This document shows, in pieces, positions 10,866 to 42,845 of a stretch of 64,000 nt of DNA. Each line of letters opens with the position of its first letter. The first letter of the stretch is position 1. The stretch comes from a virus (taxonomy: Duplodnaviria > Heunggongvirae > Uroviricota > Caudoviricetes). Made by a program: the position numbers and the translations under genes. The notes below the pieces were generated by a model that was not told where the DNA came from, did no database searches, and saw nothing but the letters and a program-made list of their open reading frames with translations. The stretch lies in the IMG/VR virus record IMGVR_UViG_3300043399_001190; one strand, 5' to 3'.

Positions 10866-10866
10866 T

Positions 10867-11148: not shown

Positions 11149-11149
11149 T

Positions 11150-11881
11150 ATGAATCCTTTGGTGACGGTCATAACGCCAACTACGGCAAGTGACCAATTG
11201 CATGATGTATTGAAATCAATAGATAAACAAACATATCAAAACATTCAACACTTGGTTGTTGTAGATGGTTTTGACAAGTATGGCGTAAAAGCCACACAAA
11301 TAATGGAAGGCGCAAAACGATCCACTGCTTTTGCACTTCCTCACAATACCGGTTATGACCAATACAACGGTCATAGAATATATGGTGCAATGTCATATAT
11401 TGCAGAAGGTGAGTTCCTCTGCTTTCTGGATCAAGACAACTGGTACGAAGATACACACATAGAGTCTCTGGTTGAAGTAATTCGCCAAGGAAATCAATGG
11501 GCATATTCTCTAAGAAAAATTGTTTCACAAGAAGGAACATTCATTTGTAATGATGATTGTGAATCTCTTGGTAAATGGAAATCTATTCTAAATGACAATT
11601 TTGTGGACGTTAATTGTTTCATGATTCCTAAAATGGCAGCAATTGCATTTTCACCATACTGGTATCGTAGAGCTAGACACCCACAAGAACAACCAGAAGT
11701 TGATAGAATTTTATCGGCATTTATGATGCAAAATTTTAAAAAATTTGACACAAATGGTCAATATAGTGTAAACTATCGTGTAGCAAGTAGAGCAGATTCT
11801 GTACAAGATGTATTCTTCATTAAAGGTAATGAAGTGATGAAACAAAATATGAATGGAGAATTTCCGTGGCGAAAGACTTAA
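11150..11881 (+). CDS. glycosyltransferase family 2-like
   Basis: N-term VTVITPTTASDQLHDVLKSIDKQTY...VVVDGFD and DQDN (DxD) motifs typical of GT2. Confidence 0.55.
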   Translation: MNPLVTVITPTTASDQLHDVLKSIDKQTYQNIQHLVVVDGFDKYGVKATQIMEGAKRSTAFALPHNTGYDQYNGHRIYGAMSYIAEGEFLCFLDQDNWYEDTHIESLVEVIRQGNQWAYSLRKIVSQEGTFICNDDCESLGKWKSILNDNFVDVNCFMIPKMAAIAFSPYWYRRARHPQEQPEVDRILSAFMMQNFKKFDTNGQYSVNYRVASRADSVQDVFFIKGNEVMKQNMNGEFPWRKT

Positions 11882-12744
11882 TTATAGGTGCATATACAAA
11901 TTATGAATTCAATTTATTGAAACCTTGGATTTATTCCATCAAACAAACCGACTTCGATGGTGATATTGTTTTAATTGCCATTGATCCAGACGAAAACACC
12001 GTAAAACAAATAGAAGATGCTGGTGTAATAGTAGTTAAGGCTAGAAACGAACAAAAAATGAGAATTCATATGTTGCGTTTCTTGTACATATACAATTATC
12101 TAAAACACACAGATTATCGTTTCGTTATCACGACAGATGTTCGTGATGTTATCTTTCAGAACAATCCGACAAAATATCTTTACACAACATTTGGTAGCAA
12201 ATCAAAAGGTATCATTGCACAATCTGAGGCAATTAAAATTAAAGATGAAGCCTGGAATCGTGATAATATCATTAAAAATTTTGGAGAATATTTTTACAAT
12301 GATGTAAAGGACAATGAAGTATATAATGTTGGTCTGCTTGCTGGAACTGCCGAATATGTTAAAGATTTATGTTTTGCTTTGTTTCAAATGTCAAGCAATC
12401 GTCCAGATTGGGTCGCCGACCAGGCAGCATACAATATGTTATTGAGTTATAAACCCTGGTCCGATATTGCAATAAAACTAAAGCTTGAAGATGGTTGGGC
12501 TTTGAATGCACACGTAACAAACAAGCCAGATCAAATGCAAGAATTTGGTCCTTATTTGTTGGAAGAAAGACCGTATATGAAAGATGGTGTGGTTTTTAAT
12601 GCACAAGGAAAACCATTTACGATTGTACACCAGTATGATAGGGTTCCAGAGTGGACTATTTATTATATGGAAAAATTTCAATTTTCTATCAAATCGGACA
12701 CCAATACCGGCAGTTCACCTAAATACTTCATCTACAATACATAA
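11866..12744 (+). CDS. hypothetical protein of the glycan-modification cluster
   Basis: ORF track; overlaps neighbours. Confidence 0.4.
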   Translation: MAKDLIIGAYTNYEFNLLKPWIYSIKQTDFDGDIVLIAIDPDENTVKQIEDAGVIVVKARNEQKMRIHMLRFLYIYNYLKHTDYRFVITTDVRDVIFQNNPTKYLYTTFGSKSKGIIAQSEAIKIKDEAWNRDNIIKNFGEYFYNDVKDNEVYNVGLLAGTAEYVKDLCFALFQMSSNRPDWVADQAAYNMLLSYKPWSDIAIKLKLEDGWALNAHVTNKPDQMQEFGPYLLEERPYMKDGVVFNAQGKPFTIVHQYDRVPEWTIYYMEKFQFSIKSDTNTGSSPKYFIYNT

Positions 12745-12762
12745 TTTTATAAATATGAGGCT

Positions 12763-13599
12763 TTGAATATGAGCAAAATTTCTATCGTAACCGCTTTCTA
12801 TGACATTGGCCGAAGTGATTGGTCGATGGATGTACACAAAAATGGTGGTCCACTTCCACACTATTTACAAAGATCGACAGAAAAATATATCGAGCATTTC
12901 AAACGAATGTGCGAGATTGATACTGAAATCATTGTTTACACATCCTCTGATCTAGCATCAAAACTCGGTGAGATTTCACCGAATGTTAAAGTTGTCGAAT
13001 ATGACTACTTTAATATACATAAAGAACTCCGTGACAAGATTGAAGAAATACAAACATCACCTGAGTTCATAAAAAGAATAAATCCATATCAAGTAAGAAA
13101 TCCCGAATACTGGTCAAAAGACTATGTTGGTGTAACATCACTAAAGGCTTTCTATGTGAGTGATGCTTTTGAGCGTGGGTTAATCACCAATGAATGGGCT
13201 GCCTGGGTTGACTTTGGTTATTGTCGTGATGCAGAACATATTCCAAAAACCAAAAAATGGGAATATGATTTCACACCAGGTAAAATGCACTTCTTTAACT
13301 ATCGTGATCCGGACATTAATAAGAAACTTGAACAAATCCAGCTTGCGGTATTAAACAATATCGTCTATATCATCGGCGGTGTTTTTGTTGGTGAAAAAAC
13401 ACAATGGAAGATGCTTGAAGATAGTATGAGCAAATCAATGGAATTTTTAATGTACAACAAGCTCGTTGATGATGACCAAGGTCTTCTATTGAGTTCATAT
13501 TTTATGAATCCAGAAATGTATGAATTGCATAAAATGCCATTAGTTGCTCCAATTGAAGATGTTAGATCCATAATTAAGAAGTTTAATAATCATGAATAA
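12763..13599 (+). CDS. putative LPS/polysaccharide biosynthesis protein (HtrL/YibB-like N-terminus IVTAFYDIGR)
   Basis: motif recall only; TATAAATA-like sequence tttataaata at 12745-12755 just upstream. Confidence 0.35.
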   Translation: MNMSKISIVTAFYDIGRSDWSMDVHKNGGPLPHYLQRSTEKYIEHFKRMCEIDTEIIVYTSSDLASKLGEISPNVKVVEYDYFNIHKELRDKIEEIQTSPEFIKRINPYQVRNPEYWSKDYVGVTSLKAFYVSDAFERGLITNEWAAWVDFGYCRDAEHIPKTKKWEYDFTPGKMHFFNYRDPDINKKLEQIQLAVLNNIVYIIGGVFVGEKTQWKMLEDSMSKSMEFLMYNKLVDDDQGLLLSSYFMNPEMYELHKMPLVAPIEDVRSIIKKFNNHE

Positions 13600-14977
13600 A
13601 TTAGTAATTTTTGACCTTGATGGTGTATTAATTGATTCTAGAGAAATACACTATGATGCATTAAATGATGCTCTGAGAAAAGTGGGTGAACAATATGTCA
13701 TTTCTAGAGAAGAACATTTAAGCTTATACGATGGTTTAAATACGACTAGAAAACTTAAGATGTTGACCGAAAAAAAAGGTTTACCTGTTTCTGAATATGA
13801 TAAGATTTGGTCTGACAAGCAAGAAGCAACATTCACTATTGTTAGAGGTTTCAATAAAGAATATTGGTTACAAACCATGTTCAGAAAAATAAAAGCAAGA
13901 GGATATAAAATTGCTGTTGCTTCGAATTCAATTCGTGAGACAGTAAAATTGTCTCTTATAAGTATTGGGCTAATTGAAGAAGTTGATTATTTTGTTAGCA
14001 ATGAGGATGTAAGTAGAGCAAAGCCATATCCCGAAATGTATTGGAAATGCATGACAGCTTTGAATGCTTTACCCAAAAATACTATCATTGTCGAAGATAG
14101 TCACATCGGCCGACAAGGTGCTTTAGATTCTGGCGCACATTTATTACCAGTTGAAAACGCACAAGAAGTTAACAGTGAAAATATGATGCAAAGGATTTAT
14201 GACCTTATGAATACAATTGAAGGAACAAGTAAAAAATCTCTACCTTGGAGAGATAACAAACTAAACGTTTTGATTCCAATGGCTGGCGCAGGCTCACGTT
14301 TTTCTACTGCCGGTTATACTTTTCCAAAACCACTTATTGAAGTTCGCGGTAAACCAATGATTCAAGTTGTTGTCGAAAACTTGAATATTGAAGCTAACTA
14401 CATTTTCTTAGTACAAAAAGAACACTATGAAAAATATAACTTGAAGTATCTTCTGAATCTAATTGCTCCAAATTGTAAGATTGTGCAAGTAGATGGTCTA
14501 ACAGAAGGTGCAGCTTGTACGACTTTATTGGCAAAAGAATATATTGATAATGATGCGCCTCTAGTCATGGCAAATTCGGATCAATACGTTGATTGGAATT
14601 CTAATGAATGCATGTACGCTTTCTCAGCAGATTCTATTGATGGTGGCATTCTAACATTTGAAGCAACGCATCCGAAATGGTCTTATGCAAAACTTGATGA
14701 GAATGGATTTGTTTCTGAAGTTGCAGAGAAGAAAGTTATTTCCAATAATGCAACAGTTGGCATTTATTACTGGCGTCACGGTTCAGACTATGTTAAATAT
14801 GCTGAACAGATGATTAAAAAAGATATTCGCGTTAACAATGAATTTTATGTTTGTCCCGTTTTCAATGAAGCGATTGGTGACGGTAAAAAAATTCGTGTTA
14901 AAAATGTTGAAGCTATGTGGGGTATTGGAACCCCAGAAGATTTAAATTATTTTTTGAGCAATCACAAGGAAGATTAA
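13592..14977 (+). CDS. bifunctional HAD-family phosphatase/phosphomutase (N) + sugar-phosphate nucleotidyltransferase (C)
   Basis: HAD motif I IFDLDGVLIDS at N-term; nucleotidyltransferase signature LIPMAGAGSRF in C-half. Confidence 0.55.
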   Translation: MNKLVIFDLDGVLIDSREIHYDALNDALRKVGEQYVISREEHLSLYDGLNTTRKLKMLTEKKGLPVSEYDKIWSDKQEATFTIVRGFNKEYWLQTMFRKIKARGYKIAVASNSIRETVKLSLISIGLIEEVDYFVSNEDVSRAKPYPEMYWKCMTALNALPKNTIIVEDSHIGRQGALDSGAHLLPVENAQEVNSENMMQRIYDLMNTIEGTSKKSLPWRDNKLNVLIPMAGAGSRFSTAGYTFPKPLIEVRGKPMIQVVVENLNIEANYIFLVQKEHYEKYNLKYLLNLIAPNCKIVQVDGLTEGAACTTLLAKEYIDNDAPLVMANSDQYVDWNSNECMYAFSADSIDGGILTFEATHPKWSYAKLDENGFVSEVAEKKVISNNATVGIYYWRHGSDYVKYAEQMIKKDIRVNNEFYVCPVFNEAIGDGKKIRVKNVEAMWGIGTPEDLNYFLSNHKED

Positions 14978-14978
14978 A

Positions 14979-15593
14979 ATGAAATATTTTTTTGATGTTG
15001 GAGCACACTGGGGACAAGACTCTCTACATATTGCAAAAGATGACCCAGATACTACAGTTATTGCTTTTGAGCCAACGCCGGAGTTAGCTTCTAGATTGAG
15101 GTGGATTGCCAAAGAAGGGAAATTTGAAAGCCGCTATAAAGTATATCAGCAAGCAATTTCAGATTTTGATGGTGAATCAGATTTTCATCTTGTTGTCGGT
15201 GATACCGGTTCGGCCTCTCTTAACGAATTCAATGACAATCTACATCAAACTTGGCCAGGTAGAACAGACTTTGTTGTTAGAGGCTCAATCAAAGTAAATG
15301 TATACAGACTCGAAACGTGGCTGCCTTTGTTTGCACCGGAAGTAACAGAAATTGAACATTTACATATTGATGCTCAAGGCTCCGATTTAGCAGTTTTAAG
15401 AGGTCTAGGTTCCAAACTCTCGATGGTGAAATCTGGTGTCGTTGAAGTGCCACAAGCTGCTGCTTTACGACTGTATAAGGGTCAACACACGAAAGAAGAA
15501 ACTCTCCAATTTTTGGAAGAGAATGGTTTCGAAGTTACAAATGTGACTTCACAGGTTAATGAGGATAATATTTTCTTTCAGAGAAAAAAATGA
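14979..15593 (+). CDS. FkbM-family SAM-dependent methyltransferase-like
   Basis: N-term FFDVGAHWGQDS resembles FkbM motif (IDVGAN.G); 204 aa. Confidence 0.5.
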   Translation: MKYFFDVGAHWGQDSLHIAKDDPDTTVIAFEPTPELASRLRWIAKEGKFESRYKVYQQAISDFDGESDFHLVVGDTGSASLNEFNDNLHQTWPGRTDFVVRGSIKVNVYRLETWLPLFAPEVTEIEHLHIDAQGSDLAVLRGLGSKLSMVKSGVVEVPQAAALRLYKGQHTKEETLQFLEENGFEVTNVTSQVNEDNIFFQRKK

Positions 15594-16303
15594 AAGTTGC
15601 ATTGTTATTAACAGGTCATATGCGGTGTTGGAATCAAGTATTTCCAAATACCAAAAACCATATCATGGACAAATATAATCCAGATGTTTTCATCGAGACA
15701 TGGGATTCTGAAGCATACTGGGATCCACATTCTTCAAAGGGTATAACCGAAGGTGGTCCCAATTTGAATGTTGATGCGATTCAACGTACTTACAAACCAG
15801 TATACATGAATGTGGAAAAATACGAAGAATTTGAAGAAAATTTTTCTCAACGAGCTAAGGAATTTACTAATTTCTATCATGTACCGAAAAACCAAATTTC
15901 CATGTGGTTTAAAGTAGGTCGTGGTATGCTCGCTGTTGAAGAGCATATGATGTTGACAGGCAAAACATATGATGTTATAATTCGTATGCGTCCAGATTTG
16001 TACTTCAATGAACCTTTACCAGATTTTGATCCGAACAAATTTTATACCTTGGGATTTAGAAATCATATGGGTCAAGGAACCTCCGATATGATTCAAGTTG
16101 GAAACTTCTTTACCATGAGCTTATTCTGTAAAGTTCTTTATCATTTACCACATCTTTATAAGGAAACCGGTCTTTTGTGTCCGCATGTTATTTCAGAACA
16201 CTTCATTAAAAGATTGGGATTACCCTGGCAAGAATTTATGGTTAACAAAACAATAATGCACACACCTCTAGGCGAATATAAACACAAGAGTCTGTACCAA
16301 TGA
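15590..16303 (+). CDS. hypothetical protein, paralogue of 16751..17458
   Basis: MKVALLLTGHMR / KYNPDVFIETWD aligns with MRLALCLSGQPR / KYTVDVFFHTWV. Confidence 0.45.
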   Translation: MKVALLLTGHMRCWNQVFPNTKNHIMDKYNPDVFIETWDSEAYWDPHSSKGITEGGPNLNVDAIQRTYKPVYMNVEKYEEFEENFSQRAKEFTNFYHVPKNQISMWFKVGRGMLAVEEHMMLTGKTYDVIIRMRPDLYFNEPLPDFDPNKFYTLGFRNHMGQGTSDMIQVGNFFTMSLFCKVLYHLPHLYKETGLLCPHVISEHFIKRLGLPWQEFMVNKTIMHTPLGEYKHKSLYQ

Positions 16304-16794
16304 TACTAATTGCACACAGAGGTCTTTTCAGTGGGCCTGATATCGAAAAAGAGAATACACCAAAACAAATCGAACTTGCATTGGAAAAAAATTACGATTG
16401 TGAAGTTGATGTTTGGTACGTTAAAAATGAATGGTGGCTAGGTCATGACAAACCACAATATAAAGTTGATTGGAACTTTATTGGAAAGGAAGGTTTGTGG
16501 CTGCACTGTAAGAATCTAGATGCTTTATATGAACTGACTTACAGCCCATTCAAGTACACTTATTTCTGGCATCAGGAAGACGATTTTACTTTAACTTCGA
16601 ATCATTACATCTGGACTTATCCTGGAAAATCTCTAACCAGAAATTCAATTTCTGTGCAACCAGAAAGAACGGAAGAAATGTGGACATGGACCAAAAGTTG
16701 TTCACTAGGTATAGCTGGTGTTTGTACAAAATATGTTGAAAGATTTGTGAATGAGATTAGCACTTTGTCTATCGGGACAACCGAGAAGCTATAA
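16300..16794 (+). CDS. glycerophosphodiester phosphodiesterase (GDPD)-like domain protein, short
   Basis: IAHRG...ENT...E.D.W..K...LGHD matches GDPD signature. Confidence 0.5.
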   Translation: MILIAHRGLFSGPDIEKENTPKQIELALEKNYDCEVDVWYVKNEWWLGHDKPQYKVDWNFIGKEGLWLHCKNLDALYELTYSPFKYTYFWHQEDDFTLTSNHYIWTYPGKSLTRNSISVQPERTEEMWTWTKSCSLGIAGVCTKYVERFVNEISTLSIGTTEKL

Positions 16795-17458
16795 AAAAGC
16801 TTTTGAATTTATAAGTAGAAATTTACTTGAAAAATATACTGTTGACGTTTTCTTTCATACGTGGGTGAACGTACCGGAGAATAGTTATATTTTTGACGAA
16901 CTGCAACAACTTTATAGACCTGTTATTGCTTCTTATGACTATTCTTTACCGTCAAATGTAAATTCACACATGTTGGTTCCAAATGGCTCACATCCAGCCA
17001 ATTTTTGCACATCAATGTTTTACTCTATTAATGTTGCAAATGAATATAGGGTCAAGCATGAAGTTTTTGGTGCATTTCGTTATGATTTTGTTATACGAAG
17101 TAGATTTGATTTTGCGCTAAACAAAGTGATTGATTTTGGTTCTCTGGAAACAAATAAACTCTATGTTCCAAAAGATGTTGAAGGACCGGCACTTTTAAAT
17201 GACCAGTTTGCCATAGCTGATTCTGATACGATGAATGTCTATGCGTCAACGTTCTTATATCTGCAAAAATTGTATAATTCTGGAGTTCCACTTTGTGGGC
17301 ATGAAATGTTGCAGGAACAACTGACAAGAAATTCTACGCCAGTTGAACGTATCGACCTTGACCATCCTTTCGTTGATGGTGATTTTAATAGAGGAAGACA
17401 CTCTCTGATACGTGAAGATATGTCAAAATGGGTCGATATTAAAATTTGGGGCTACTAA
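16751..17458 (+). CDS. hypothetical protein, paralogue of 15590..16303
   Basis: see paralogue; overlaps upstream gene by 44 nt. Confidence 0.45.
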   Translation: MRLALCLSGQPRSYKKAFEFISRNLLEKYTVDVFFHTWVNVPENSYIFDELQQLYRPVIASYDYSLPSNVNSHMLVPNGSHPANFCTSMFYSINVANEYRVKHEVFGAFRYDFVIRSRFDFALNKVIDFGSLETNKLYVPKDVEGPALLNDQFAIADSDTMNVYASTFLYLQKLYNSGVPLCGHEMLQEQLTRNSTPVERIDLDHPFVDGDFNRGRHSLIREDMSKWVDIKIWGY

Positions 17459-17494: not shown

Positions 17495-18688
17495 ATGAAA
17501 CAATTTTTGCAGTATTTGCAGGAAGAACTGGACCCGGAAGAGGGTGCCAGTAGGCAAATAAAACACCTAACACATATCGAAGATCGTATTTTGCAAACCG
17601 GAGACAAAGGTGCAAAACACGCAATTTCGTCATTGGAAACTGCGGCTGAACACATCAGTCAAGGTAAAAAGTCATCGCAACTGACAACAAAATATGACGG
17701 TTCACCAGCAATCGTTTACGGTCATCACCCAGAAAACGGTAAGTTTTTTGTTGCTTCCAAGTCAGCTTTCAACAAAACACCAAAAATCAACTATACGCCT
17801 GCCGATATAGAAAAAAACCATGGCCATGCTCCTGGCTTGGTTGAGAAGTTGAAAGCAGCACTGAAACATTTACCGAAAGTTGCACCAGAAAAAGGTGTTT
17901 ACCAGGGTGATATGATGTTCTCGGATGTAGACAAGAAACACTCAAAAGATGCCGTTTCTTTCAGACCAAATCCCTCTGGTATAACTTACACTGCACACGG
18001 TCAACATGCAACAAAAGCTAAAAAGGCCAAAATTGGTGTAGTAACTCATTTATCATATGAAGGCAAAAATTCTGCTAGTTTAAATGCATCGCACGAAGTT
18101 GACCATGAAAATTTCGGGCAACATTCTGATGTATTCTCGGTTGACCCAAGAATGGACACTTCTAAAGTACATTTCGGTCCAAAAGACAGAGCAGAATTCA
18201 AAAAACACATTGCCGCAGCTAGATCAGTTCACGATACGCACGGTGACGACATGTATGCAGGAACAAAAGCACATCAAGGTATAGGTGGTCATTTAGAGAC
18301 TTACATCAATCACACTGTTAGGAGTGATGAAGAACCTAATCATGAAAATTTTAAAAAGTGGTTGGAAAATAAGAAAAATAAAGAAATTGAAAAATTGAAG
18401 GTTGAAAAAAATAAAAAGTCCAAACAGCAAGAGTTATCAGCGGAATTAGATAAGATTGAAAGAAATAAAAAGCACTATAATAATGTTTTCAAAATGCATG
18501 GTCATTTACAAAAAGCAAAAAATGTGCTGATTAATGTTCTAAATCAACATCAAGAATTTCAACATGAACACGCTGGTGAACCAGCAAATCCTGAAGGATA
18601 CGTTTTCCATCACGGAAAAGAATCGGATAAATTTGTAAACAGAAGCGAATTCTCAAAAAGAAATTTTGCCGGAATAAGAAACATATGA
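17495..18688 (+). CDS. putative covalent nucleotidyltransferase (KxDG motif, ligase-like) with T4 CTS-like N-terminus
   Basis: N-term MKQFLQYLQE; TTKYDGSPAIVYG (KxDG), later PEGYVFHHGK; assignment by motif only. Confidence 0.45.
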   Translation: MKQFLQYLQEELDPEEGASRQIKHLTHIEDRILQTGDKGAKHAISSLETAAEHISQGKKSSQLTTKYDGSPAIVYGHHPENGKFFVASKSAFNKTPKINYTPADIEKNHGHAPGLVEKLKAALKHLPKVAPEKGVYQGDMMFSDVDKKHSKDAVSFRPNPSGITYTAHGQHATKAKKAKIGVVTHLSYEGKNSASLNASHEVDHENFGQHSDVFSVDPRMDTSKVHFGPKDRAEFKKHIAAARSVHDTHGDDMYAGTKAHQGIGGHLETYINHTVRSDEEPNHENFKKWLENKKNKEIEKLKVEKNKKSKQQELSAELDKIERNKKHYNNVFKMHGHLQKAKNVLINVLNQHQEFQHEHAGEPANPEGYVFHHGKESDKFVNRSEFSKRNFAGIRNI

Positions 18689-20586
18689 AAAAATTTCTAG
18701 AAAAAGTGGAAGACGATTTGCAAACCAAAAGCCCAGTCGTAATGGCTTTTGGTAGAATGAATCCGCCCACAGTTGGGCATGAGAAACTTGTAAACAGAGT
18801 TAAAGAAATAGCTAAAGACTATAATGCTCCACACCATGTTATAATTTCACATTCTGTTGATGCAAACAAAAATCCACTTGATGCTAAAGCAAAACTGAAA
18901 CACGCCCAGAGATTTTTTCCTGGCACAAATTTATCAACTTCCAGTAAAGAACTTCCAACTTTCTTGCAACACGCTGCAAAGTTAAATGCAGCAGGACATG
19001 ACCATTTAATTATGGTTGCAGGCTCGGATAGAATTCCAGAATATGAAAAGAAGTTGCATGATTATAATGGACCAAAAGATAAAAATCCAAAAGCACTTTT
19101 CAATTTCAAAAAAATTGAGTTGAAATCTGCGGGGCATCGTGATCCTGACTCTGAAGGTGTTGAAGGTATGTCTGCCTCAAAAATGAGGGAACATGCAAAA
19201 AATAATGATTTTCATAGCTTCAAGATGGGTGTACCTGAGCATGTGCCCGAGAAACACGCCAGAGAACTTTTCAGAGATGTTAGAAAAGGTATGGGTATAC
19301 ATGAAGATTCTAGTCATGGTTTGTTCAAAGCACTCTTCATTTGTGGTGGTCCCGGTTCCGGTAAAGATATCATCATACGTGAAGCAATTGCTGAAAGAAA
19401 CGCGGTCGAACTGAATTCAACTCTTGCAATTAATATTCTCAACGACAAACATAAGTTACATGAACAGTCTAAAGATTTCAGAAGAGAAGCTATTCGCAAA
19501 AGAATGCCGTTGATTGTAAATGGCACAACGAATGAACAATTCAATATTATTGAAATTAAAAATGAGTTGGAAGAACTCGGTTACGAAACAATGATGATTT
19601 TCGTAAACACGACAAACGAAGCTTCGAAAAAAAGAAACAATGGACATGAAAGAGTTATGTCCGAATCTGTTCGTCAAGAAAGATGGGATAAGACTCAACT
19701 TGTAGCTGAAAAAATGAATCAAATTTTTACAAAATATCTGGAATTTGATAACTCTTTGGACTTGAATGAAGCTACAATTTTCGAAATGTCGGAGAAAGAA
19801 GAAGATATAGCAATCATTTATGAAATGTCCAACTGGTTTTTCGACACTCAAGTAAACAACGAAATTGCAGAAACTTGGTTAGAAAAAAATAGAAAAAAGG
19901 ATATAAACCAAGTATTCGAATCCTTTATTAAAAATCCTTTGAAAGGTAGAAAAAATGTTTCAGAAATTAAAGCAAATCGCAAGACTATTTTTGCCGAAAG
20001 TGGATGCAAATGCAAAACATCCTTTGGATATTCAGAAGTATCAGGTAGAGGAAAACAAAAGCTCACAGACAACATCTGCCCAAGTTGCGAGCTTACTAGA
20101 AAAGCCGGTAGAGAAGACGATGTTAGAGACGGAGACACCAAATCAAACATTAGTTACACATTCAGAACCTACCACGAAGGAACAACCCCAACCATCCAAG
20201 TCAACCCAGAGCCCAAAGAAACGCGCTTCCAGCAAGACAACGACAAGCAAAAAAACAGGAAACAAAAAGCCGCACCAAGCCAAAGCGGCAAAGTAATGAA
20301 CACTGCTGGTGTTAGCCCAGAATATGATACACGCGCTCAAGGTTCTGTTTACCCAATGTCTGGTCTTGGAAATGTTACATATAGAGAACAGAAAGAGAAT
20401 AAATATACCAGTACCGCAGAGGTAACACGCAAATCGTTTGTAAAATTCAGAAAAGAATCTATTGATTCTCCAAGTGTCGAAATGGGAGTTACTGGCGGAG
20501 AATATGGTCCTTCAAACAAAGAACCGTTGGAAACTCCAGGCGATAAAGTATTGAATCAAAATTCAAATAAAAAGAAGAAAAAATGA
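18685..20586 (+). CDS. HxGH nucleotidyltransferase (NMNAT/cytidylyltransferase-like) fused to P-loop domain (GGPGSGK) and long K/T-rich low-complexity tail; CTS-like N-terminus
   Basis: MKKFLEKVED N-term; FGRMNPPTVGHEKL; LFICGGPGSGKDIII; tail rich in K,T,S,N. Confidence 0.5.
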   Translation: MKKFLEKVEDDLQTKSPVVMAFGRMNPPTVGHEKLVNRVKEIAKDYNAPHHVIISHSVDANKNPLDAKAKLKHAQRFFPGTNLSTSSKELPTFLQHAAKLNAAGHDHLIMVAGSDRIPEYEKKLHDYNGPKDKNPKALFNFKKIELKSAGHRDPDSEGVEGMSASKMREHAKNNDFHSFKMGVPEHVPEKHARELFRDVRKGMGIHEDSSHGLFKALFICGGPGSGKDIIIREAIAERNAVELNSTLAINILNDKHKLHEQSKDFRREAIRKRMPLIVNGTTNEQFNIIEIKNELEELGYETMMIFVNTTNEASKKRNNGHERVMSESVRQERWDKTQLVAEKMNQIFTKYLEFDNSLDLNEATIFEMSEKEEDIAIIYEMSNWFFDTQVNNEIAETWLEKNRKKDINQVFESFIKNPLKGRKNVSEIKANRKTIFAESGCKCKTSFGYSEVSGRGKQKLTDNICPSCELTRKAGREDDVRDGDTKSNISYTFRTYHEGTTPTIQVNPEPKETRFQQDNDKQKNRKQKAAPSQSGKVMNTAGVSPEYDTRAQGSVYPMSGLGNVTYREQKENKYTSTAEVTRKSFVKFRKESIDSPSVEMGVTGGEYGPSNKEPLETPGDKVLNQNSNKKKKK

Positions 20587-21056
20587 AAACGTTTCTACAA
20601 TATTCAAAAGAGCGAGACAAGGAAGAGCTTGAAAGACAAATGCGCCATCATTTCGAAATGGCTCAAAGAAGTCTTGACACGGCTCAAGAATTGCAAAGTA
20701 AAGGTGACATGGATGGTTTTCACACATTTATGGCAAAGCACCACCATTTTCAAACTCAAGGTGAGTATTTAAAAACTCACTTGAATGAGGCTTCTCCAGC
20801 GTGGCAAAGAAAAGCTGGTAAAAGCCCAACTGGCGGTCTGAATCGCAAAGGTATTGCTTCTTATCGTCGTGAAAATCCTGGTTCAAAACTGTCAATGGCA
20901 GTGACAACACCTCCTTCAAAGTTGAAGCCAGGAAGCAAAGCTGCAAAAAGAAGAAAATCCTTCTGTGCAAGAATGGGTGGTATGCCTGGTCCAATGAAGG
21001 ATGAAAAGGGTCGCCCAACTAGAAAAGCTTTATCGTTACGTAAATGGAACTGCTAA
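20583..21056 (+). CDS. basic protein with CTS-like N-terminus (candidate internal head protein)
   Basis: MKTFLQYSKE N-term; K/R-rich C-terminus. Confidence 0.45.
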   Translation: MKTFLQYSKERDKEELERQMRHHFEMAQRSLDTAQELQSKGDMDGFHTFMAKHHHFQTQGEYLKTHLNEASPAWQRKAGKSPTGGLNRKGIASYRRENPGSKLSMAVTTPPSKLKPGSKAAKRRKSFCARMGGMPGPMKDEKGRPTRKALSLRKWNC

Positions 21057-21071
21057 TAAACGGAGAAAAAA

Positions 21072-21863
21072 ATGTTCAATAATATTTTCAAGAAAAATGA
21101 TCCTGTTGCTGATATGATCGCTCAAATTGCTGAAGCCGATTACAAAGCAAAAATGGAAGAGCTTAAAGGTCAACAGCATAAGATTGACAAAAACAAGAAC
21201 AACAAGATTGATGCACACGACTTTGCAATTCTTCGTGGCGAAAAGAAAGCCATGAAAAAAGAAGAAGTTGATAGTGTTGAAGAAGCTAACAATCCATTTG
21301 ATGTTAAGAACTACAAGAGTCAATTGAAATCAAAACCAGGTGAAAAAGCTGGCTTTGACTCCAAGAAAACATCTACTGGTACTGTTTATTCAAGAAAGCC
21401 AGTCAAAGATGAGCCAATGAAAAAGGAAGAAATTGACCCGAACAAGACAACAGTTGACACGTTAAATGGTCGTGAAAAAGATTCTAAGAATCCTTTTCTT
21501 TCGAAGAAAGTGTTCATGGATGTACCAGATAATGTAAAAGAAGAAACTGAACAAATTGATGAGTTGAAAAAAACGACTGTCAAATCTTATCTAAAGAAAA
21601 AAGTTGATACTCTCCCAGGAAAAGATCCAAAGAAAGACCAGGAAAGCATGATGAGAGCGCATCATCGTGTTACTGGTGTTAAACCAACTTCTGAAGAAGT
21701 TGAAAAAATCGACGAGCGTGAACTTACTAAAGGTGAAACCGCAGAAAAAGAACGTATCGTTAAAGGAATGAAAAAGAGTTTTGCTGGTTTCAAACAGCGT
21801 TACGGTGATAAAGCAAAATCAGTTATGTATGCTACCGCTACAAAGGCAGCTAAAAAGGATTGA
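21072..21863 (+). CDS. K/E-rich protein with TEQIDELKK motif (candidate scaffold/internal protein)
   Basis: shares (V/T)EQIDE(L) motif with next gene. Confidence 0.5.
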   Translation: MFNNIFKKNDPVADMIAQIAEADYKAKMEELKGQQHKIDKNKNNKIDAHDFAILRGEKKAMKKEEVDSVEEANNPFDVKNYKSQLKSKPGEKAGFDSKKTSTGTVYSRKPVKDEPMKKEEIDPNKTTVDTLNGREKDSKNPFLSKKVFMDVPDNVKEETEQIDELKKTTVKSYLKKKVDTLPGKDPKKDQESMMRAHHRVTGVKPTSEEVEKIDERELTKGETAEKERIVKGMKKSFAGFKQRYGDKAKSVMYATATKAAKKD

Positions 21864-23722
21864 TAATGAGTAAAGCAGGCAATCTCATTAAAAACATGGT
21901 GAAAGCGAAAAAAGAATCTGTCATGGGTAAATTGGCCAACGGTGACGATCCGATGGAACCATGGTCGAAAAGATTCGATGCTCCAATCAAAGAAGAAGAA
22001 TTGAACGAAGATACCTGGTTATATCGTTACATACGTTCTCTTGGTTGGGACCCGGAACACATGACATTTGCAGAACGTTCAAAATACGCTCGTTCGAATG
22101 CATTTAAACACTGGAAACAGTCACACATGAATCGTAGACCGGGTGAAACTGCCACAATGGAGAAACCAGTTCAGGAAGAAATTCTCGACGAAGCTGGAAC
22201 TGGCTTGCTCATGTCATATATTAAATCCAAGGGTCTTGATCCAAGAACAATGGACGGAAATCAAAAAGCCGCATATTCTAAATCCAGTGAATTTAGAATG
22301 TTTAAAATGCGTCATATGAAAGAAGTTTCGGGGATGGGTGAACGTGGTGATGATTGGAATGAAGAAAAGAAACCTGTGAAAGAGGCTGTCGATAAAGCAG
22401 ACACTGTTACAGTAGACATTCCATTGATGATTCGTCTTCTTGAATATGCTCGTGAAGATGCCAAAACCGATATGGATCTACACAAAGTTGTGGAAAATTT
22501 AATCAATATGCGTTCAGAAGGAACACTTTCAATGGATCATTACGATTCTATCGTAAATGTTAAGTCCATGAAAGAAGAGGTTGAACAAATTGATGAACTT
22601 GATAAAGCGACACTGACCAGCTATGCAACGAAAGCGAGAGCAGATGCTGAAAAGCTAACTAAGCAAGGTGATGCTGCATCAAAAAGAAGTTCCACGAAAT
22701 CTTTACAGACTGCTTATGACAAATATAAAAAAGCAGCAAAACGCACGATGGGTGCCGGTAGTGCAGAGTCGAAAGCTCGTCTAAAAGAAGACGAGCAATT
22801 AGACGAACTAAAAAAGATTCCTGATAATATGGATGCTGACGACCATATTACCCGTGAAGATTTGCGTCAGTGGTTTAGTAAAACACACCCAGAGGGTGAT
22901 TGGAAAAGAATCAATTCAAAAGGTGAAGTTGCAGGTCCTTGTGCCAGAGAGCCTGGTGAACCAAAACCTAAGTGCATGTCAAAAGAGAAACGCGCACAAT
23001 TGAGCAAGAGTGAACGTGCGGCCGCAGTTGCAGCAAAACGTAAACATGATCCTGTTGCTGATAGACCAGGTAAAGGCGGTAAGCCTATTAACGTTTCAAA
23101 TTACGGTAAAGGTAAACTGAGTGAAGAAGGTGTCGATGAAGCATGTTGGGATACACACAAACAAGAGGGAATGAAAAAGAAGGGCGATAGAATGGTCCCA
23201 AATTGTGTTCCTAAAAATGAATCTGTCGAACAAATTGATGAAAAAAACAAACCAACAAATCCAGGTTTGTGGTCTAGAGCAAAAGCAATGGCTCGTTCCA
23301 AGTTTGATGTTTACCCATCAGCTTATGCAAATGGTTGGGCAGCAAAATGGTACAAATCCAAAGGCGGCGGATGGAAGTCGGTGAAAGAAGATATTGTTCA
23401 AGAAGGTATTTACGGTATCGAGGATTCACCTTTGTCTGCGACAAATTCTGTTAAAGCTATGGAATCTTCTAACAGAAAAAAAGAAATGTCGAAATCTGCT
23501 AGAATGATTAAATCAATCTACAAAAAGAAAAATGTCAAAGAGACAATGTACGATTGGGAAAAGACTGAAAAGGGTGGTAAAGTTGTTGATGAGCCAACCG
23601 CAAAAGTTATTATGAAAGGTGGTACAACTATGACTGGAAAACCACGAGACACTATCGAAATAGAGCCTGTCTTAAAAACAAAACTTAACAGTCCGGCTGG
23701 TATGAAATCTAGCTTGCAATAA
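21860..23722 (+). CDS. 620-aa K/E-rich protein with internal duplications and three (V)EQIDE motifs (candidate scaffold/internal protein)
   Basis: repeats YIRSLGWDPEHMT..HWKQSHM / YIKSKGLDPRTMD..MFKMRHM; EEVEQIDELDK, ESVEQIDEKNK. Confidence 0.5.
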   Translation: MIMSKAGNLIKNMVKAKKESVMGKLANGDDPMEPWSKRFDAPIKEEELNEDTWLYRYIRSLGWDPEHMTFAERSKYARSNAFKHWKQSHMNRRPGETATMEKPVQEEILDEAGTGLLMSYIKSKGLDPRTMDGNQKAAYSKSSEFRMFKMRHMKEVSGMGERGDDWNEEKKPVKEAVDKADTVTVDIPLMIRLLEYAREDAKTDMDLHKVVENLINMRSEGTLSMDHYDSIVNVKSMKEEVEQIDELDKATLTSYATKARADAEKLTKQGDAASKRSSTKSLQTAYDKYKKAAKRTMGAGSAESKARLKEDEQLDELKKIPDNMDADDHITREDLRQWFSKTHPEGDWKRINSKGEVAGPCAREPGEPKPKCMSKEKRAQLSKSERAAAVAAKRKHDPVADRPGKGGKPINVSNYGKGKLSEEGVDEACWDTHKQEGMKKKGDRMVPNCVPKNESVEQIDEKNKPTNPGLWSRAKAMARSKFDVYPSAYANGWAAKWYKSKGGGWKSVKEDIVQEGIYGIEDSPLSATNSVKAMESSNRKKEMSKSARMIKSIYKKKNVKETMYDWEKTEKGGKVVDEPTAKVIMKGGTTMTGKPRDTIEIEPVLKTKLNSPAGMKSSLQ

Positions 23723-23754
23723 ATAACAGTATATTCTTTTAAGGAGAAACAGTA

Positions 23755-24309
23755 ATGTCAACAGCTTTTTGGACAATGACGGACGCTAACACTGGTGTTC
23801 CGCTTTTCGCACCAACAGCACTAAAACTTGCACCAACCCGTGCAAACGCAAATGTAATCTATGCTAACTCAAATACCGCACAAGCTTTTAGTGCAGCCGT
23901 TGGTGTTTGGGGTGTAGATACACAGGAAGCAACAAACACCCAAGTTACGCCAGCCGCAACAAAAATGGCTCACGCTGGTTGGGTTCAAAGAACCGCAGGT
24001 ATGGGTGGTATTGTTACAATTTCTGCTAACACCAATGCTTATAGCCCAGACGGTAATATTTTTGTTACTTTCGCAAATGGTGGTACAGGTGCAACACCTG
24101 CAAACGCTACAGTTGTTACCAATGGTGCAAAACTAATCACAGGTATCACTTTGAATGAACCAGGTTTGTATCTAACAACACCAACCGCCACAGTTGTAAA
24201 TAGTAACGTTGCTATCACAATCACTATGGGTGGTCGTGCTGGTAGAACACAATACGAAACTCTTGTTGCAACTGGTAGCATCACCGGCAACGGCGCAGTT
24301 ATTATCTAA
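23755..24309 (+). CDS. highly codon-biased Ala/Thr/Gly/Asn-rich protein (likely abundant virion/late protein)
   Basis: strong RBS AAGGAGAAACAGTAATG; GC and codon use shifted (ggt/gca/act); AATAAATA (late-promoter-like) at ~23721; hairpin after stop. Confidence 0.5.
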   Translation: MSTAFWTMTDANTGVPLFAPTALKLAPTRANANVIYANSNTAQAFSAAVGVWGVDTQEATNTQVTPAATKMAHAGWVQRTAGMGGIVTISANTNAYSPDGNIFVTFANGGTGATPANATVVTNGAKLITGITLNEPGLYLTTPTATVVNSNVAITITMGGRAGRTQYETLVATGSITGNGAVII

Positions 24310-24313: not shown

Positions 24314-24332
24314 AGGGCGGATTTTCCGCCCT
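24314..24332 (+). terminator. hairpin AGGGCGG-atttt-CCGCCCT directly after stop of 23755..24309
   Basis: 7-bp GC-rich stem; weak U-tract on plus strand (TATCATTAT). Confidence 0.45.
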
Positions 24333-24338: not shown

Positions 24339-24725
24339 ATGTTTGATGATTTGACTGAAGACAATTTTATTATGTATGCTATGAAGGCATACTATTCGCC
24401 ACACTGTATAATGAGTGAATTTGAGAGCGACCTAAAAAGAACAAAATATCTAAAAAGACTTTTCAGGCGCTACAAAATAACGAAAGCATTAAAAGAAAGA
24501 TTAATCTTAAACCACATAATACTTCTTTATAATGTTTTTGGAGTCGAGGCGGCAACAAGAATATTGTTCTTCAGAATTGATGAAAAAGATTATGATGTTC
24601 TTAAAACTTTTTTGATTTATCTAAATTATATGCCAGATAAAATAAAAGGTATAGGTGGAAAAGATATTTTATCTTCTGATATACTAATTGATATGCATGT
24701 TGCAGATATACTAAGAAAAATATGA
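24339..24725 (+). CDS. hypothetical protein
   Basis: ORF track. Confidence 0.4.
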   Translation: MFDDLTEDNFIMYAMKAYYSPHCIMSEFESDLKRTKYLKRLFRRYKITKALKERLILNHIILLYNVFGVEAATRILFFRIDEKDYDVLKTFLIYLNYMPDKIKGIGGKDILSSDILIDMHVADILRKI

Positions 24726-24907
24726 AATCATTCAAACAATTTATTTTAGAAGATGGTATGGTGGGTTCTTCCGGACCAACAAATGTTGTAAGCACTGGTG
24801 CGATTGCTGGAACGGGGGAAAAAGGTGGTGAACCAGGTGTGCGTTTAAAACGTAAGCGTGCTGTTATAGTTCAACCAATGCAAAAACGAAAACCACCAAA
24901 GATGTAA
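24722..24907 (+). CDS. small basic protein with CTS-like N-terminus (IPI-like internal protein candidate)
   Basis: MKSFKQFILED N-term; Gly-rich middle, KRKRAV..KRKPPKM basic tail. Confidence 0.4.
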   Translation: MKSFKQFILEDGMVGSSGPTNVVSTGAIAGTGEKGGEPGVRLKRKRAVIVQPMQKRKPPKM

Positions 24908-42464: not shown

Positions 42465-42486
42465 CTAAATCACTGCCAGCCCCAAC

Positions 42487-42585: not shown

Positions 42586-42596
42586 TTGTTTACTCC

Positions 42597-42818: not shown

Positions 42819-42845
42819 TTGGTGCTCCTTTGTTTCAGTGGTTGG

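What the first reader, a model, noticed from the sequence alone, without database searches (positions are those of the whole stretch)
18685..20586. Fusion of HxGH nucleotidyltransferase (NMNAT-like) and adenylate-kinase-like P-loop domain with a ~200-aa K/T-rich disordered tail
FGRMNPPTVGHEKL resembles the NMN/NaMN adenylyltransferase motif (GRF.P.H.GH). A downstream GGPGSGK P-loop follows, giving an architecture reminiscent of NadR (NMNAT + ribosylnicotinamide kinase) but without the HTH. The Walker A lacks the usual S/T after the Lys (GKD), so activity is uncertain. Phage NAD+ reconstitution pathways are a recently recognised counter-defence; an NR-kinase/NMNAT route delivered as a capsid protein would be new.
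Basis: inference. Interest (0 to 1): 0.7.

Follow-up and report, generated by a model that had tools for sequence, protein, structure and literature searches.

The report
Phage nucleotidyltransferase–kinase fusion, probably virion-packaged
A marine T4-like phage gene fuses a nucleotide-transferring enzyme to an unusual kinase-like domain and a conserved basic tail; it sits beside an RNA-ligase-like gene, this gene set looks built to be loaded into the phage head, and the proposed NAD-making role is unproven.

Summary
The ORF (18685-20586, 633 aa) is real, and its full length is conserved in more than 120 metagenomic protein clusters. It has four parts.

- **Leader (aa 1-10).** It resembles the T4 capsid-targeting sequence (CTS).
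- **Nucleotidyltransferase domain (aa 15-205).** It carries intact catalytic motifs (TxGH, MSASKMR). Its nearest solved folds are NMN/NaMN adenylyltransferases, with PPAT close behind. By sequence it is closer to PPAT, and it fits no NMNAT or NadR model.
- **P-loop kinase-like domain (aa 212-415).** It belongs to the Zeta-toxin / adenylate-kinase / polynucleotide-kinase group, not the NadR ribosylnicotinamide-kinase type. The odd GKD Walker A occurs in 30 of 32 such fusions. This clade has also lost the Asp and Arg motifs of stand-alone relatives.
- **Tail (aa 416-633).** It is basic, predicted disordered, yet strongly conserved, and has a Cys knuckle.

The constant partner is the upstream DUF6267 gene, which I show to be RNA-ligase-like with a near-perfect CTS. 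Orthologous "cytidylyltransferases" were detected in two cyanophage virion proteomes.

Best reading: a head-packaged, ejected nucleotide or nucleic-acid-end processing module. NadR-like NAD+ salvage is possible but weakly supported. The substrate is unknown.

The parts
18685..20586 (+). Whole ORF, 633 aa: leader + HIGH nucleotidyltransferase + P-loop kinase-like domain + basic tail.
   Evidence: ORF listing. Full-length homologues at 55-85% identity. AlphaFold2 domain map.
18685..18714 (+). N-terminal leader MKKFLEKVED (aa 1-10), a partial match to the T4 capsid-targeting sequence MKTYQEFIAE.
   Evidence: F4 is kept in 112/120 homologues, [LIV]8 in 108/120, E9 in 96/120 and E10 in 70/120. It deviates at residue 7 (K instead of an aromatic) and has D at residue 10. 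T4 rules come from PMC9026906. BLOSUM score against the CTS is 16, against a mean of -1.6 and sd 7.
18727..19299 (+). HIGH-superfamily nucleotidyltransferase domain (aa 15-205), the phage 'cytidyltransferase' family.
18748..18780 (+). FGRMNPPTVGH: the (T/H)xGH nucleotide-binding signature.
   Evidence: G23, R24, N26, P27, G31 and H32 are invariant across 7 distant phage homologues. Thr29 is at least 90% conserved.
19165..19188 (+). GMSASKMR: the ISxTxxR-type second signature of HIGH nucleotidyltransferases.
   Evidence: S163 and R168 are invariant. It aligns to the ISGTKIR / ISSS motifs of MJ0951 and CoaD.
19318..19929 (+). P-loop kinase-like domain (aa 212-415) of the Zeta-toxin / AAA_33 / NMP-kinase / PNK group.
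   Evidence: Pfam AAA_33 1.4e-3 and Zeta_toxin 1.7e-3, both below cut-off. It is 27% identical to the stand-alone kinase HTVC008M gp129, which passes the Zeta_toxin cut-off. Structure neighbours are listed. Family profile against PDB sequences: AK1 5e-6, zeta 1e-4, T4 PNK 4e-3.
19345..19368 (+). Atypical Walker A, GGPGSGKD (Asp in place of Ser/Thr).
   Evidence: K227 and D228 are invariant. GKD occurs in 30 of 32 cytidyltransferase-fused kinases, against GK[ST] in stand-alone relatives.
19930..20583 (+). Basic, conserved, predicted-disordered tail (aa 416-633), ending in KKKKK.
   Evidence: pLDDT below 50. pI 9.6, net charge +15. Blocks 541-600 are 78-82% identical in 120 homologues.
20005..20088 (+). 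Cys knuckle, CxC-x21-CPxC (C441, C443, C465, C468): a possible zinc site.
   Evidence: C465 and C468 are invariant; C441 and C443 are at least 90% conserved. Metal binding is inferred, not tested.
17495..18688 (+). Upstream partner gene, DUF6267: RNA-ligase-like covalent nucleotidyltransferase with a CTS-like leader MKQFLQYLQE|E. Its stop overlaps the start of the ORF.
20583..21056 (+). Downstream basic protein with DUF6321 and leader MKTFLQYSKE. Same operon, overlapping the stop of the ORF.
   Evidence: Pfam DUF6321 5e-23. CTS score 23. pI 10.3. DUF6321 is fused to the cytidyltransferase domain in 4 of 50 representatives.
21072..23722 (+). Two further basic, low-complexity proteins (263 and 620 aa) with VEQIDE-type repeats. 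They share a module with the cytidyltransferase tail of phage Melnitz.
   Evidence: Translations. pI 9.2-9.4. The Melnitz cytidyltransferase tail matches window 23129-23245 at 61% over 39 aa, E 4e-9.
24722..24907 (+). 61-aa ORF with the best CTS match in the window (MKSFKQFILE|D).
   Evidence: Score 31, the top of 558 candidate starts. Strict regex: 3 hits against 0.17 expected.
24314..24332 (.). G+C-rich hairpin that probably ends the 17495-24309 transcription unit.
   Evidence: Terminator scan and upstream sequence of 24339.

Best explanation
The ORF is one component of a conserved three-enzyme module of T4-like (Kyanoviridae-type) phages. The module comprises an RNA-ligase-like protein (DUF6267), a HIGH-motif nucleotidyltransferase (the 'cytidyltransferase'), and, in some lineages, a Zeta/PNK/NMP-kinase-like P-loop protein. 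Here the last two are fused.

Members of all three families begin with a roughly 10-residue leader resembling the T4 capsid-targeting sequence. I therefore propose the following sequence of events (all inferred):
1. The proteins are loaded onto the prohead core.
2. They are usually clipped by the prohead protease after (L/I)xE.
3. They are held among the DNA by their basic tails.
4. They are ejected into the cell with the genome.

Once inside (also inferred), the N-domain transfers an NMP from an NTP onto a phosphate acceptor. This is the chemistry shared by NMNAT and PPAT: a 5'-phosphorylated nucleotide-like or nucleic-acid end gives an N(5')pp-X product. The P-loop domain binds ATP and either phosphorylates or merely holds the same ligand. 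The ligase-like partner seals or uses the activated end.

The likely purpose is immediate repair, or pre-emption, of host attack on RNA or nucleotide pools.

**Shown:** domain folds, intact nucleotidyltransferase motifs, gene linkage and fusions, conserved leader, virion detection of orthologues.

**Inferred:** packaging of this particular protein, the substrate, and kinase activity.
For: **Context.** The window is a T4-like replication module, syntenic with HTVC008M, Melnitz, S-RIM8 and S-SZBM1.

**Linkage.**
- DUF6267 lies immediately upstream of the cytidyltransferase in the window, HTVC008M, Melnitz, S-RIM8, DLP_6 and S-SZBM1.
- The same holds in 27 of 41 further loci, 4 of them fused.
- Among 50 long cytidyltransferase representatives, Zeta_toxin is fused in 11 and DUF6267 in 7.
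- In HTVC008M the kinase is a separate gene placed before the cytidyltransferase gene.

**Folds.**
- N-domain: NMNAT, NaMNAT and PPAT neighbours.
- Kinase: PNKP, Clostridium thermocellum Pnkp, PSTK and adenylate kinase.
- DUF6267: RNA ligases, plus the ligase motifs.

**Leader.**
- The T4 CTS is MKTYQEFIAE. Residues 4 and 7 govern targeting and residues 8 and 10 govern cleavage.
- DUF6267 matches all four positions in about 95% of 117 homologues.
- Cytidyltransferase and kinase orthologues carry MKKFSAFLTE, MRFRQFIIE, MKKFSEIIE and MKTFAELQE.
- The strict motif occurs 3 times in the window against 0.17 expected.

**Virions.** Cytidylyltransferase was detected in CsCl-purified S-SZBM1 and S-CREM2 virions. 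S-SZBM1_140 is the positional orthologue (38% identity, E 3e-30).

**Charge.** Every protein of the block is basic, pI 9.0-10.3, as the T4 internal proteins are.
Against: - This ORF's own leader is the weakest of the set. It has K instead of an aromatic at residue 7, a key targeting position in T4, and D at residue 10. On its own it is not statistically unusual: the loose pattern gives 4 hits against 2 expected.
- No canonical late promoter precedes the operon. Only ACTAAATA lies at -41, and a perfect sigma-70 promoter lies 1.5 kb upstream.
- The proteomic detections are low-abundance (2-3 peptides), and the authors themselves allow for contamination.
- No phosphoesterase for 3'-end healing was found.
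- No HIGH nucleotidyltransferase is known to act in RNA repair.
- In this clade the kinase has lost the Asp (NSD to NST) and the DGTGR motif (to NGTTN) of stand-alone relatives, so it may not phosphorylate anything.
- The alignments behind the structure models are shallow (58 and 44 sequences at 58% identity or more).
Confidence: 0.45

Rival explanations
1. NadR-like NAD+ salvage. The P-loop domain phosphorylates nicotinamide riboside to NMN. The N-domain adenylylates NMN to NAD+. This restores NAD+ against NADase defences.
For: - The nearest solved folds of the N-domain are NMN/NaMN adenylyltransferases.
- The domain order, nucleotidyltransferase then P-loop kinase, is the same as in NadR.
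- The arrangement of the family's conserved motifs (GxxxPxTxGH, GSDR, an invariant Tyr, MSASKMR) resembles, from my own knowledge of NadD sequences, the NadD motif set.
- Phage NAD+ reconstitution is an established counter-defence (Osterman 2024, cited in PMC12801897).
- A published note calls the cyanophage enzyme an NMNAT homologue.
Against: - No NMNAT, NadR or NadD sequence model matches.
- PDB profile E-values are 0.3-0.5 for NMNAT and NadR, against 0.04 for PPAT.
- hhalign aligns E. coli NadD only over the ISST motif region, and NadR only over the HxGH region; nothing aligns to NadR's kinase domain.
- The first His of HxGH is Thr, as in PPAT.
- By sequence profile the kinase family is nearest to adenylate kinase 1, zeta toxin and PNK.
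- About 550 of 560 phage genomes with the nucleotidyltransferase lack the kinase.
- The invariant partner is a ligase-like protein.
- The gene is core in Kyanoviridae rather than a patchy defence-island gene.
Confidence: 0.15
2. An ordinary cytoplasmic, non-packaged metabolic enzyme of the replication module. Examples would be a CoA-synthase-like PPAT plus 3'-kinase pair, or a nucleotide (NMP) kinase fused to a cofactor nucleotidyltransferase. On this reading the N-terminal similarity to the CTS is coincidental for this protein.
For: - The gene lies between the gp41 helicase and the primase and ribonucleotide reductase genes.
- E. coli CoaD is the best sequence-level match: 142 columns, E 5e-4.
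- It has TxGH and a KKNPL-type motif as in PPAT.
- Dephospho-CoA kinase and adenylate kinases are among the kinase neighbours.
- A sigma-70 promoter lies upstream and there is no clear late promoter.
- The leader deviates at residue 7.
Against: - The leader is conserved across the whole family and is canonical in most orthologues.
- Orthologues were seen in two virion proteomes.
- A 218-aa conserved basic tail and a ligase-like partner are unexplained by cofactor synthesis.
- No cellular homologues were found. All 41 genome-collection hits are phage-like, mostly MAG contigs.
Confidence: 0.2
3. A mainly structural or DNA-associated internal head protein. On this reading the enzyme-like domains are vestigial or serve only as nucleotide- or DNA-binding modules.
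For: - The kinase active-site motifs are altered (GKD, NST, NGTTN).
- The protein has a long basic tail with modular, shuffled segments that it shares with neighbouring genes.
Against: - The nucleotidyltransferase catalytic signatures are invariant over very distant homologues.
- GKD is itself conserved in 30 of 32 fusions, which argues for selection on a working site.
- Both domains are as conserved as typical enzymes.
Confidence: 0.1

Closest known systems
Cyanophage/pelagiphage 'cytidyltransferase' (phrog_395, phrog_3041; e.g. S-RIM8 SXDG_00170, S-SZBM1_140, HTVC008M gp130)
   Same: The N-domain is homologous (38-44% identity). The position after the gp41 helicase and DUF6267 is the same. 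Both have long tails.
   Different: Here a P-loop kinase-like domain is fused behind it. The tail is a different, clade-specific sequence that lacks DUF5824.
NadR (HTH + NMNAT + ribosylnicotinamide kinase) and NadM/NadD NMN(NaMN) adenylyltransferases
   Same: The HIGH nucleotidyltransferase is followed by a P-loop kinase. NMNAT and NaMNAT are the top structural neighbours.
   Different: There is no HTH. The motif is TxGH rather than HxGH. No sequence-model match was found. Nothing aligns to the NadR kinase domain.
Bifunctional CoA synthase (PPAT + dephospho-CoA kinase) and PPAT (CoaD)
   Different: The hhalign probability is only 30%. PPAT is absent from the Foldseek top 50. The domain is about 50 aa larger and has a GSDR motif. 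The kinase is closer to adenylate kinase, zeta toxin and PNK than to dephospho-CoA kinase.
T4 internal head proteins IPI-III and Alt (CTS-targeted, ejected with the DNA)
   Same: It has a short N-terminal leader of the MKTYQEFIAE type and is basic. The neighbouring genes carry leaders that match residues 4, 7, 8 and 10. Like Alt, it would be an enzyme carried in the head.
   Different: The mature parts share no homology. This ORF's leader has K7 and D10. Packaging has not been shown for this protein.
RNA repair sets: T4 Pnkp + Rnl1/Rnl2, and fungal Trl1 (ligase-kinase-CPDase)
   Same: An RNA-ligase-like enzyme is genetically coupled, and sometimes fused, to a PNK-like P-loop kinase.
   Different: No 3'-end healing phosphoesterase was found. 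A HIGH nucleotidyltransferase is present in addition. The kinase is optional, and in this clade it lacks the Asp that aligns with the catalytic Asp of zeta toxin and PNK.

Membership tests
HIGH-signature (cytidylyltransferase-like, PF01467) nucleotidyltransferase superfamily | (H/T)xGH motif after the first strand | tested here: met
   T29-V-G31-H32. G31 and H32 are invariant in distant homologues.
HIGH-signature (cytidylyltransferase-like, PF01467) nucleotidyltransferase superfamily | ISxTxxR-type C-terminal signature | tested here: met
   M162-S-A-S-K-M-R168. S163 and R168 are invariant, and the motif aligns to the equivalent motifs of MJ0951 and CoaD.
HIGH-signature (cytidylyltransferase-like, PF01467) nucleotidyltransferase superfamily | Rossmann-like fold similar to solved members | tested here: met
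HIGH-signature (cytidylyltransferase-like, PF01467) nucleotidyltransferase superfamily | Score above Pfam's or NCBIfam's curated cut-off | tested here: inconclusive
   This protein scores 13.5 bits against a cut-off of 21, and TIGR00125 22.5 against 27.7. Orthologues pass: S-RIM8 27.5 and Melnitz 27.4 bits.
NMN/NaMN adenylyltransferase (NadD/NadM) | Match to an NMNAT-specific sequence model or significant similarity to a characterised NMNAT | tested here: not met
   No NCBIfam NMNAT model at E <= 0.1. PDB profile E-values are 0.34-0.5. hhalign against E. coli NadD gives probability 2.8%, aligning the ISST region only.
NMN/NaMN adenylyltransferase (NadD/NadM) | Nearest solved structures are NMNATs | tested here: met
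NMN/NaMN adenylyltransferase (NadD/NadM) | NMN or NaMN + ATP -> NAD+ or NaAD activity | not testable with these tools
   This needs an enzyme assay.
NadR | N-terminal HTH domain | tested here: not met
   The first strand of the nucleotidyltransferase starts at residue 17. No HTH family matched.
NadR | C-terminal ribosylnicotinamide-kinase-type P-loop domain | tested here: not met
   hhalign of the full-length alignment against E. coli NadD's relative NadR aligns only 39 columns around HxGH. The kinase family profile is nearest to AK1, zeta toxin and T4 PNK.
Phosphopantetheine adenylyltransferase (CoaD) | TxGH motif and full-length sequence similarity | tested here: inconclusive
Zeta_toxin / AAA_33 P-loop kinases | Walker A GxxGxGK[ST] | tested here: not met
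   The motif is GGPGSGKD. Asp is invariant here and present in 30 of 32 cytidyltransferase-fused kinases.
Zeta_toxin / AAA_33 P-loop kinases | Asp about 20 residues after the Walker Lys, and a (D/E)GTxR acceptor motif | tested here: not met
   This clade has LNST and NGTTN. Stand-alone relatives have NSD and DGTGR. Other fusions have INSD and NGTGD.
Zeta_toxin / AAA_33 P-loop kinases | Score above Pfam's cut-off, or homology to a member that passes | tested here: inconclusive
   This protein scores 18.3 against 22.3 and 19.3 against 27. It is homologous to HTVC008M gp129 (27% identity, E 4e-19), which scores 50 bits for Zeta_toxin.
T4-type CTS-bearing internal head proteins | Leader with the targeting residues 4 and 7 and the processing residues 8 and 10 ((L/I)xE) | tested here: inconclusive
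   F4 and V8 fit. K7 does not. D10 in T4 blocks cleavage but not targeting. The neighbour DUF6267 and most cytidyltransferase orthologues fit all four positions.
T4-type CTS-bearing internal head proteins | Physical presence in the virion | not testable with these tools
   Published proteomes cover orthologues only: S-SZBM1_140 (2 peptides) and S-CREM2 ORF154 (3 peptides).
ATP-dependent RNA/DNA ligase superfamily (for the partner gene DUF6267) | Motif I KxDG, plus motifs III, IV and V | tested here: met
   K66-Y-D-G, Q137-G-D, E367-G-Y-V and K379-x-V-x-R383 are invariant across distant homologues.
ATP-dependent RNA/DNA ligase superfamily (for the partner gene DUF6267) | Ligase nucleotidyltransferase fold | tested here: met

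The most novel reading that the evidence does not exclude
The ocean's dominant T4-like myoviruses may carry, inside the capsid, a ready-made enzyme kit that they inject with the DNA. The kit would comprise an RNA-ligase-like enzyme, an NMNAT/PPAT-like nucleotidyltransferase and an atypical GKD kinase. It would rebuild a dinucleotide cofactor such as NAD+, or re-adenylylate and reseal damaged RNA ends, in the first seconds of infection, before any phage gene is expressed. That would be a pre-loaded counter-defence against NADase or anticodon-nuclease immunity.
Probability: 0.15. Interest if true: 0.85.

Novelty: new variant of a known kind. Interest (0 to 1): 0.55.

Why it matters
- The nucleotidyltransferase and DUF6267 genes are core genes of Kyanoviridae. 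The nucleotidyltransferase is found in all 460 or so cyanophage records searched and in thousands of metagenomic clusters. No function is known for either.
- If they are enzymatic internal head proteins, T4-like marine phages deliver catalytic activities with their DNA. That opens a testable route to early counter-defence in globally abundant phage-host systems.
- The conserved GKD P-loop variant is also an unexplored active-site type.
- If the packaging idea fails, the gene is simply an uncharacterised bifunctional nucleotide enzyme.

Tried and rejected
- **Direct sequence search against the PDB**, for the ORF and for DUF6267: nothing significant.
- **Profile searches against the PDB**, with 7- and 21-sequence N-domain alignments: every E-value was 0.007 or worse, so no subfamily could be assigned.
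- **hhalign against E. coli NadD, NadR and HldE:** motif-only matches.
- **T4 late promoter TATAAATA:** only 2 copies in the window (4.4 expected), and none before the operon. Timing of expression is therefore undecided.
- **Cellular homologues that might reveal an operon context:** the 41 hits in the genome collection are phage-like, mostly MAG contigs, plus one 188-kb contig in a Nonlabens assembly. No informative bacterial neighbourhood was seen.
- **Role in the adjacent sugar-nucleotide island (10-17.4 kb):** rejected. That island has its own MobA-type nucleotidyltransferase and is absent from other phages that carry the module.
- **Literature:** there is no paper on DUF6267, and no transcription-class data for this gene were found. 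PMC5029184 is not held.
- **Megablast of 9 kb** against cultured phages: no match.
- **Not done:** The full-length model was used for both fold searches.

Full report
**1. Observation.**
ORF 18685..20586 (+) encodes 633 aa. It starts 4 nt before the stop of the preceding gene and ends 4 nt after the start of the next, so it sits in a tightly packed same-strand block.
- AlphaFold2, run on a 58-sequence alignment, gives two confident domains (aa ~15-205 and ~212-415, pLDDT mostly 80-90) and a tail (aa 418-633) below pLDDT 50.
- The tail is basic and polar: K 13%, S 9%, T 9%, G 8%, pI 9.6, net charge +15, 21% hydrophobic.
- The gene is real and selected. More than 6000 homologues were found, and the best 120 clusters span 97-100% of the length at 55-85% identity.
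The signature is TxGH, not HxGH; Thr29 is at least 90% conserved. The tail is as conserved as the enzyme domains: blocks 541-600 are 78-82% identical, and four Cys in a CxC-x21-CPxC pattern are (nearly) invariant.

**2. Genomic setting.**
The window is the replication module of a T4-like marine myovirus. It carries gp43 DNA polymerase, UvsX, gp41 helicase, gp61 primase and NrdA/B. There is no close cultured relative at the DNA level. Gene order matches Pelagibacter phage HTVC008M, Methylophilales phage Melnitz and T4-like cyanophages such as S-RIM8 and S-SZBM1.

**3. The N-domain.**
- PHROGs place it in the phage 'cytidyltransferase' families (phrog_3041 at 2e-61, phrog_395 at 2e-40).
- tblastn finds it in 560 phage records. 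These include essentially all T4-like cyanophages and several jumbo phages of enterobacteria and Pseudomonas.
- The library of 50%-identity clusters holds 3744 related clusters.
- Both catalytic signatures of HIGH nucleotidyltransferases are invariant over homologues down to 30% identity. I therefore regard it as an active NMP-transferase.
- Which subfamily it belongs to cannot be settled.
  - Sequence favours PPAT weakly. PDB profile E-values are 0.04 for PPAT and 0.34-0.5 for NMNAT and NadR. hhalign against E. coli CoaD aligns 142 columns (E 5e-4, probability 30%). NadD, NadR and HldE align only over a motif.
  - No NMNAT-specific NCBIfam model hits.
  - The TxGH variant is the PPAT form.

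**4. The second domain.**
- It is a P-loop kinase fold. Pfam AAA_33 and Zeta_toxin hits fall just below cut-off.
- It is homologous (27% identity) to a stand-alone kinase of HTVC008M, gp129, which passes the Zeta_toxin cut-off.
- The family profile's best solved-sequence matches are adenylate kinase 1 (5e-6), zeta toxin (1e-4) and T4 polynucleotide kinase (4e-3).
- Structural neighbours are PNKP, the Clostridium thermocellum Pnkp kinase, PSTK, Kti12, adenylate kinases and dephospho-CoA kinase. Nothing points to the NadR ribosylnicotinamide kinase.
- The GKD Walker A is not a one-off defect. It occurs in 30 of 32 nucleotidyltransferase-fused kinases from different 50% clusters, usually with NGTGD. 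Stand-alone relatives have GK[ST], NSD and DGTGR.
- The clade of this window has additionally changed NSD to NST and NGTGD to NGTTN. The Arg-rich lid (R317, N318, R323) is kept.
- So the site is selected but non-canonical, and kinase activity is uncertain.

**5. The conserved partners.**
- The gene upstream (17495-18688) is DUF6267 (1e-93).
- Its invariant residues are the ligase motifs: KxDG (K66), QGD, EGxV and KxVxR.
- DUF6267 directly precedes the nucleotidyltransferase in HTVC008M, Melnitz, S-RIM8, S-SZBM1 and Stenotrophomonas phage DLP_6. It also does so in 27 of 41 additional loci, in 4 of which the two are fused.
- Among 50 long family representatives, the fused domains are Zeta_toxin/AAA_33 (11), DUF5824 (9), DUF6267 (7), DUF6321 (4) and DUF5661 (3).
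- In HTVC008M the kinase is a separate gene placed before the nucleotidyltransferase. In Melnitz it is unlinked, among structural genes.
- Ligase-like, nucleotidyltransferase and kinase therefore form a recurrent module. The kinase is the optional member, present in only 8 cultured-phage records.

**6. The leader and packaging.**
- The T4 capsid-targeting sequence is MKTYQEFIAE (PMC8442874). In T4, residues 4 and 7 matter for targeting and residues 8 and 10 for cleavage. Asp at position 10 blocks cleavage but not targeting (PMC9026906).
- DUF6267 proteins begin M[LK]SF..[FY][LI].E in about 95% of 117 homologues, matching all four positions.
- Orthologues of the nucleotidyltransferase and kinase begin MKKFSAFLTE (S-RIM8), MRFRQFIIE (S-SZBM1), MKKFSEIIE (Melnitz cytidyltransferase) and MKTFAELQE (Melnitz kinase). 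Many metagenomic ones look similar.
- In the window the strict pattern occurs 3 times against 0.17 expected. Two of these are gene starts, 17495 and 24722.
- Scoring every candidate start against the T4 CTS puts 24722, 20583 and 17495 among the top four of 558.
- The target ORF's own leader, MKKFLEKVED, is conserved in its clade (F4, L5, [LIV]8, E9). It has K at position 7 and, in this window, D at position 10. Alone it is only a loose match.
- Independently, 'cytidylyltransferase' was detected by mass spectrometry in purified virions of S-SZBM1 (gene 140, together with its neighbour 139) and of S-CREM2 (ORF154). Peptide counts were low, and the authors note possible contamination.
- S-SZBM1_140 is the positional orthologue of the N-domain.
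- All proteins of the 17.5-23.7 kb block are basic, as the T4 internal proteins are.
- Against late, virion-type expression: there is no canonical late promoter upstream, and a perfect sigma-70 promoter lies at 15953.

**7. Mechanism.**
The best-supported picture is a head-packaged, ejected enzyme module. The N-domain performs NMP transfer to a phosphate acceptor. The P-loop domain binds ATP and acts on, or holds, the same ligand. The ligase-like partner handles 5'-phosphate and 3'-OH ends. The shared chemistry is activation of a 5'-phosphate as an N(5')pp-X species. That chemistry covers both NAD-type dinucleotide synthesis and nucleic-acid end adenylylation, so I cannot decide the substrate.
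- NadR-like NAD+ salvage remains possible (about 0.15). It lacks specific support and does not explain the ligase partner or the rarity of the kinase.
- A non-packaged cofactor or nucleotide enzyme (about 0.2) and a mostly structural role (about 0.1) are the other rivals.

**8. Novelty.**
The nucleotidyltransferase family is annotated, and its presence in virions has been noted in the literature. The held literature did not show the following: the ligase-like nature of DUF6267 (no paper mentions it), the shared CTS-type leaders in cyanophage-type phages, the recurrent three-way fusions, or the conserved GKD P-loop. I class the finding as a new variant of known kinds, namely bifunctional nucleotidyltransferase-kinase enzymes and CTS-targeted internal proteins.

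**9. Limits.**
- The structure models rest on shallow alignments.
- Both fold searches used the full-length model.
- All functional statements beyond fold and motif are inference.
- The packaging evidence concerns orthologues, not this protein.

Noticed in passing
window 17495-18688: DUF6267, a family with no literature, has all the ligase motifs (KxDG etc.), a confident model whose best matches are RNA ligases, and an N-terminal leader that matches the T4 capsid-targeting sequence at all four functionally mapped positions.
   Followed up: yes
window 24722-24907: A 61-aa ORF starts MKSFKQFILE|D, the best match to the T4 CTS in the whole window. Its Gly/Pro-rich body resembles the region annotated as S-SZBM1_134. 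It could be a small internal head protein.
   Followed up: partly
window 20583-23722: Three basic proteins follow the ORF: one with DUF6321 and leader MKTFLQYSKE, then a 263-aa and a 620-aa protein with repeated (V/T)EQIDE(L) motifs. They share short modules with the tails of cytidyltransferases in other phages (for example Melnitz, 61% over 39 aa at 23129-23245). Modules appear to be shuffled between tails and separate genes.
   Followed up: partly
window 10116-17458: An island of sugar-related genes is inserted between the gp41 helicase and DUF6267: a glycosyltransferase-like gene, a HAD + MobA-type NTP-transferase fusion, a methyltransferase and two DUF7796 genes. The related phages examined lack it. 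The only two TATAAATA late-promoter-like sites of the window (10090, 12748) and a perfect sigma-70 promoter (15953-15981) lie within it.
   Followed up: partly
representative proteins P0241-P0389: Kinase domains fused to the cytidyltransferase carry GKD with NGTGD. Stand-alone relatives carry GK[ST] with DGTGR. This is a coordinated, conserved change of three active-site positions, not random decay.
   Followed up: partly
L040-L043 (MAG contigs labelled Methanobrevibacter, Tenericutes, Firmicutes): DUF6267-cytidyltransferase fusion proteins of about 940-956 aa occur in gut-type metagenome bins. The module is therefore not restricted to marine phages. The host labels are probably binning artefacts.
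   Followed up: no
L008 (S-SZBM1) genes 191 and 192: Two small ORFs in the structural module, next to a 'virion structural protein', begin MKSFKSFLSE and MKTFKQYITE. They are further candidate CTS-bearing internal proteins in a cyanophage.
   Followed up: no
window 32882-33106: A 74-aa ORF overlapping the end of nrdB starts MKTLREMIER, the second-best CTS score. It is not the first Met of its frame, so it may be spurious.
   Followed up: no
window 42000-46000: G+C rises to 0.47 against about 0.36 elsewhere, and the GC skew dips. The ORFs there (for example 43944-45059, 371 aa) have no Pfam match. It may be acquired DNA.
   Followed up: no
window 271-346: tRNA-Met (CAU) gene at the left end of the window, next to minus-strand genes.
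   Followed up: no
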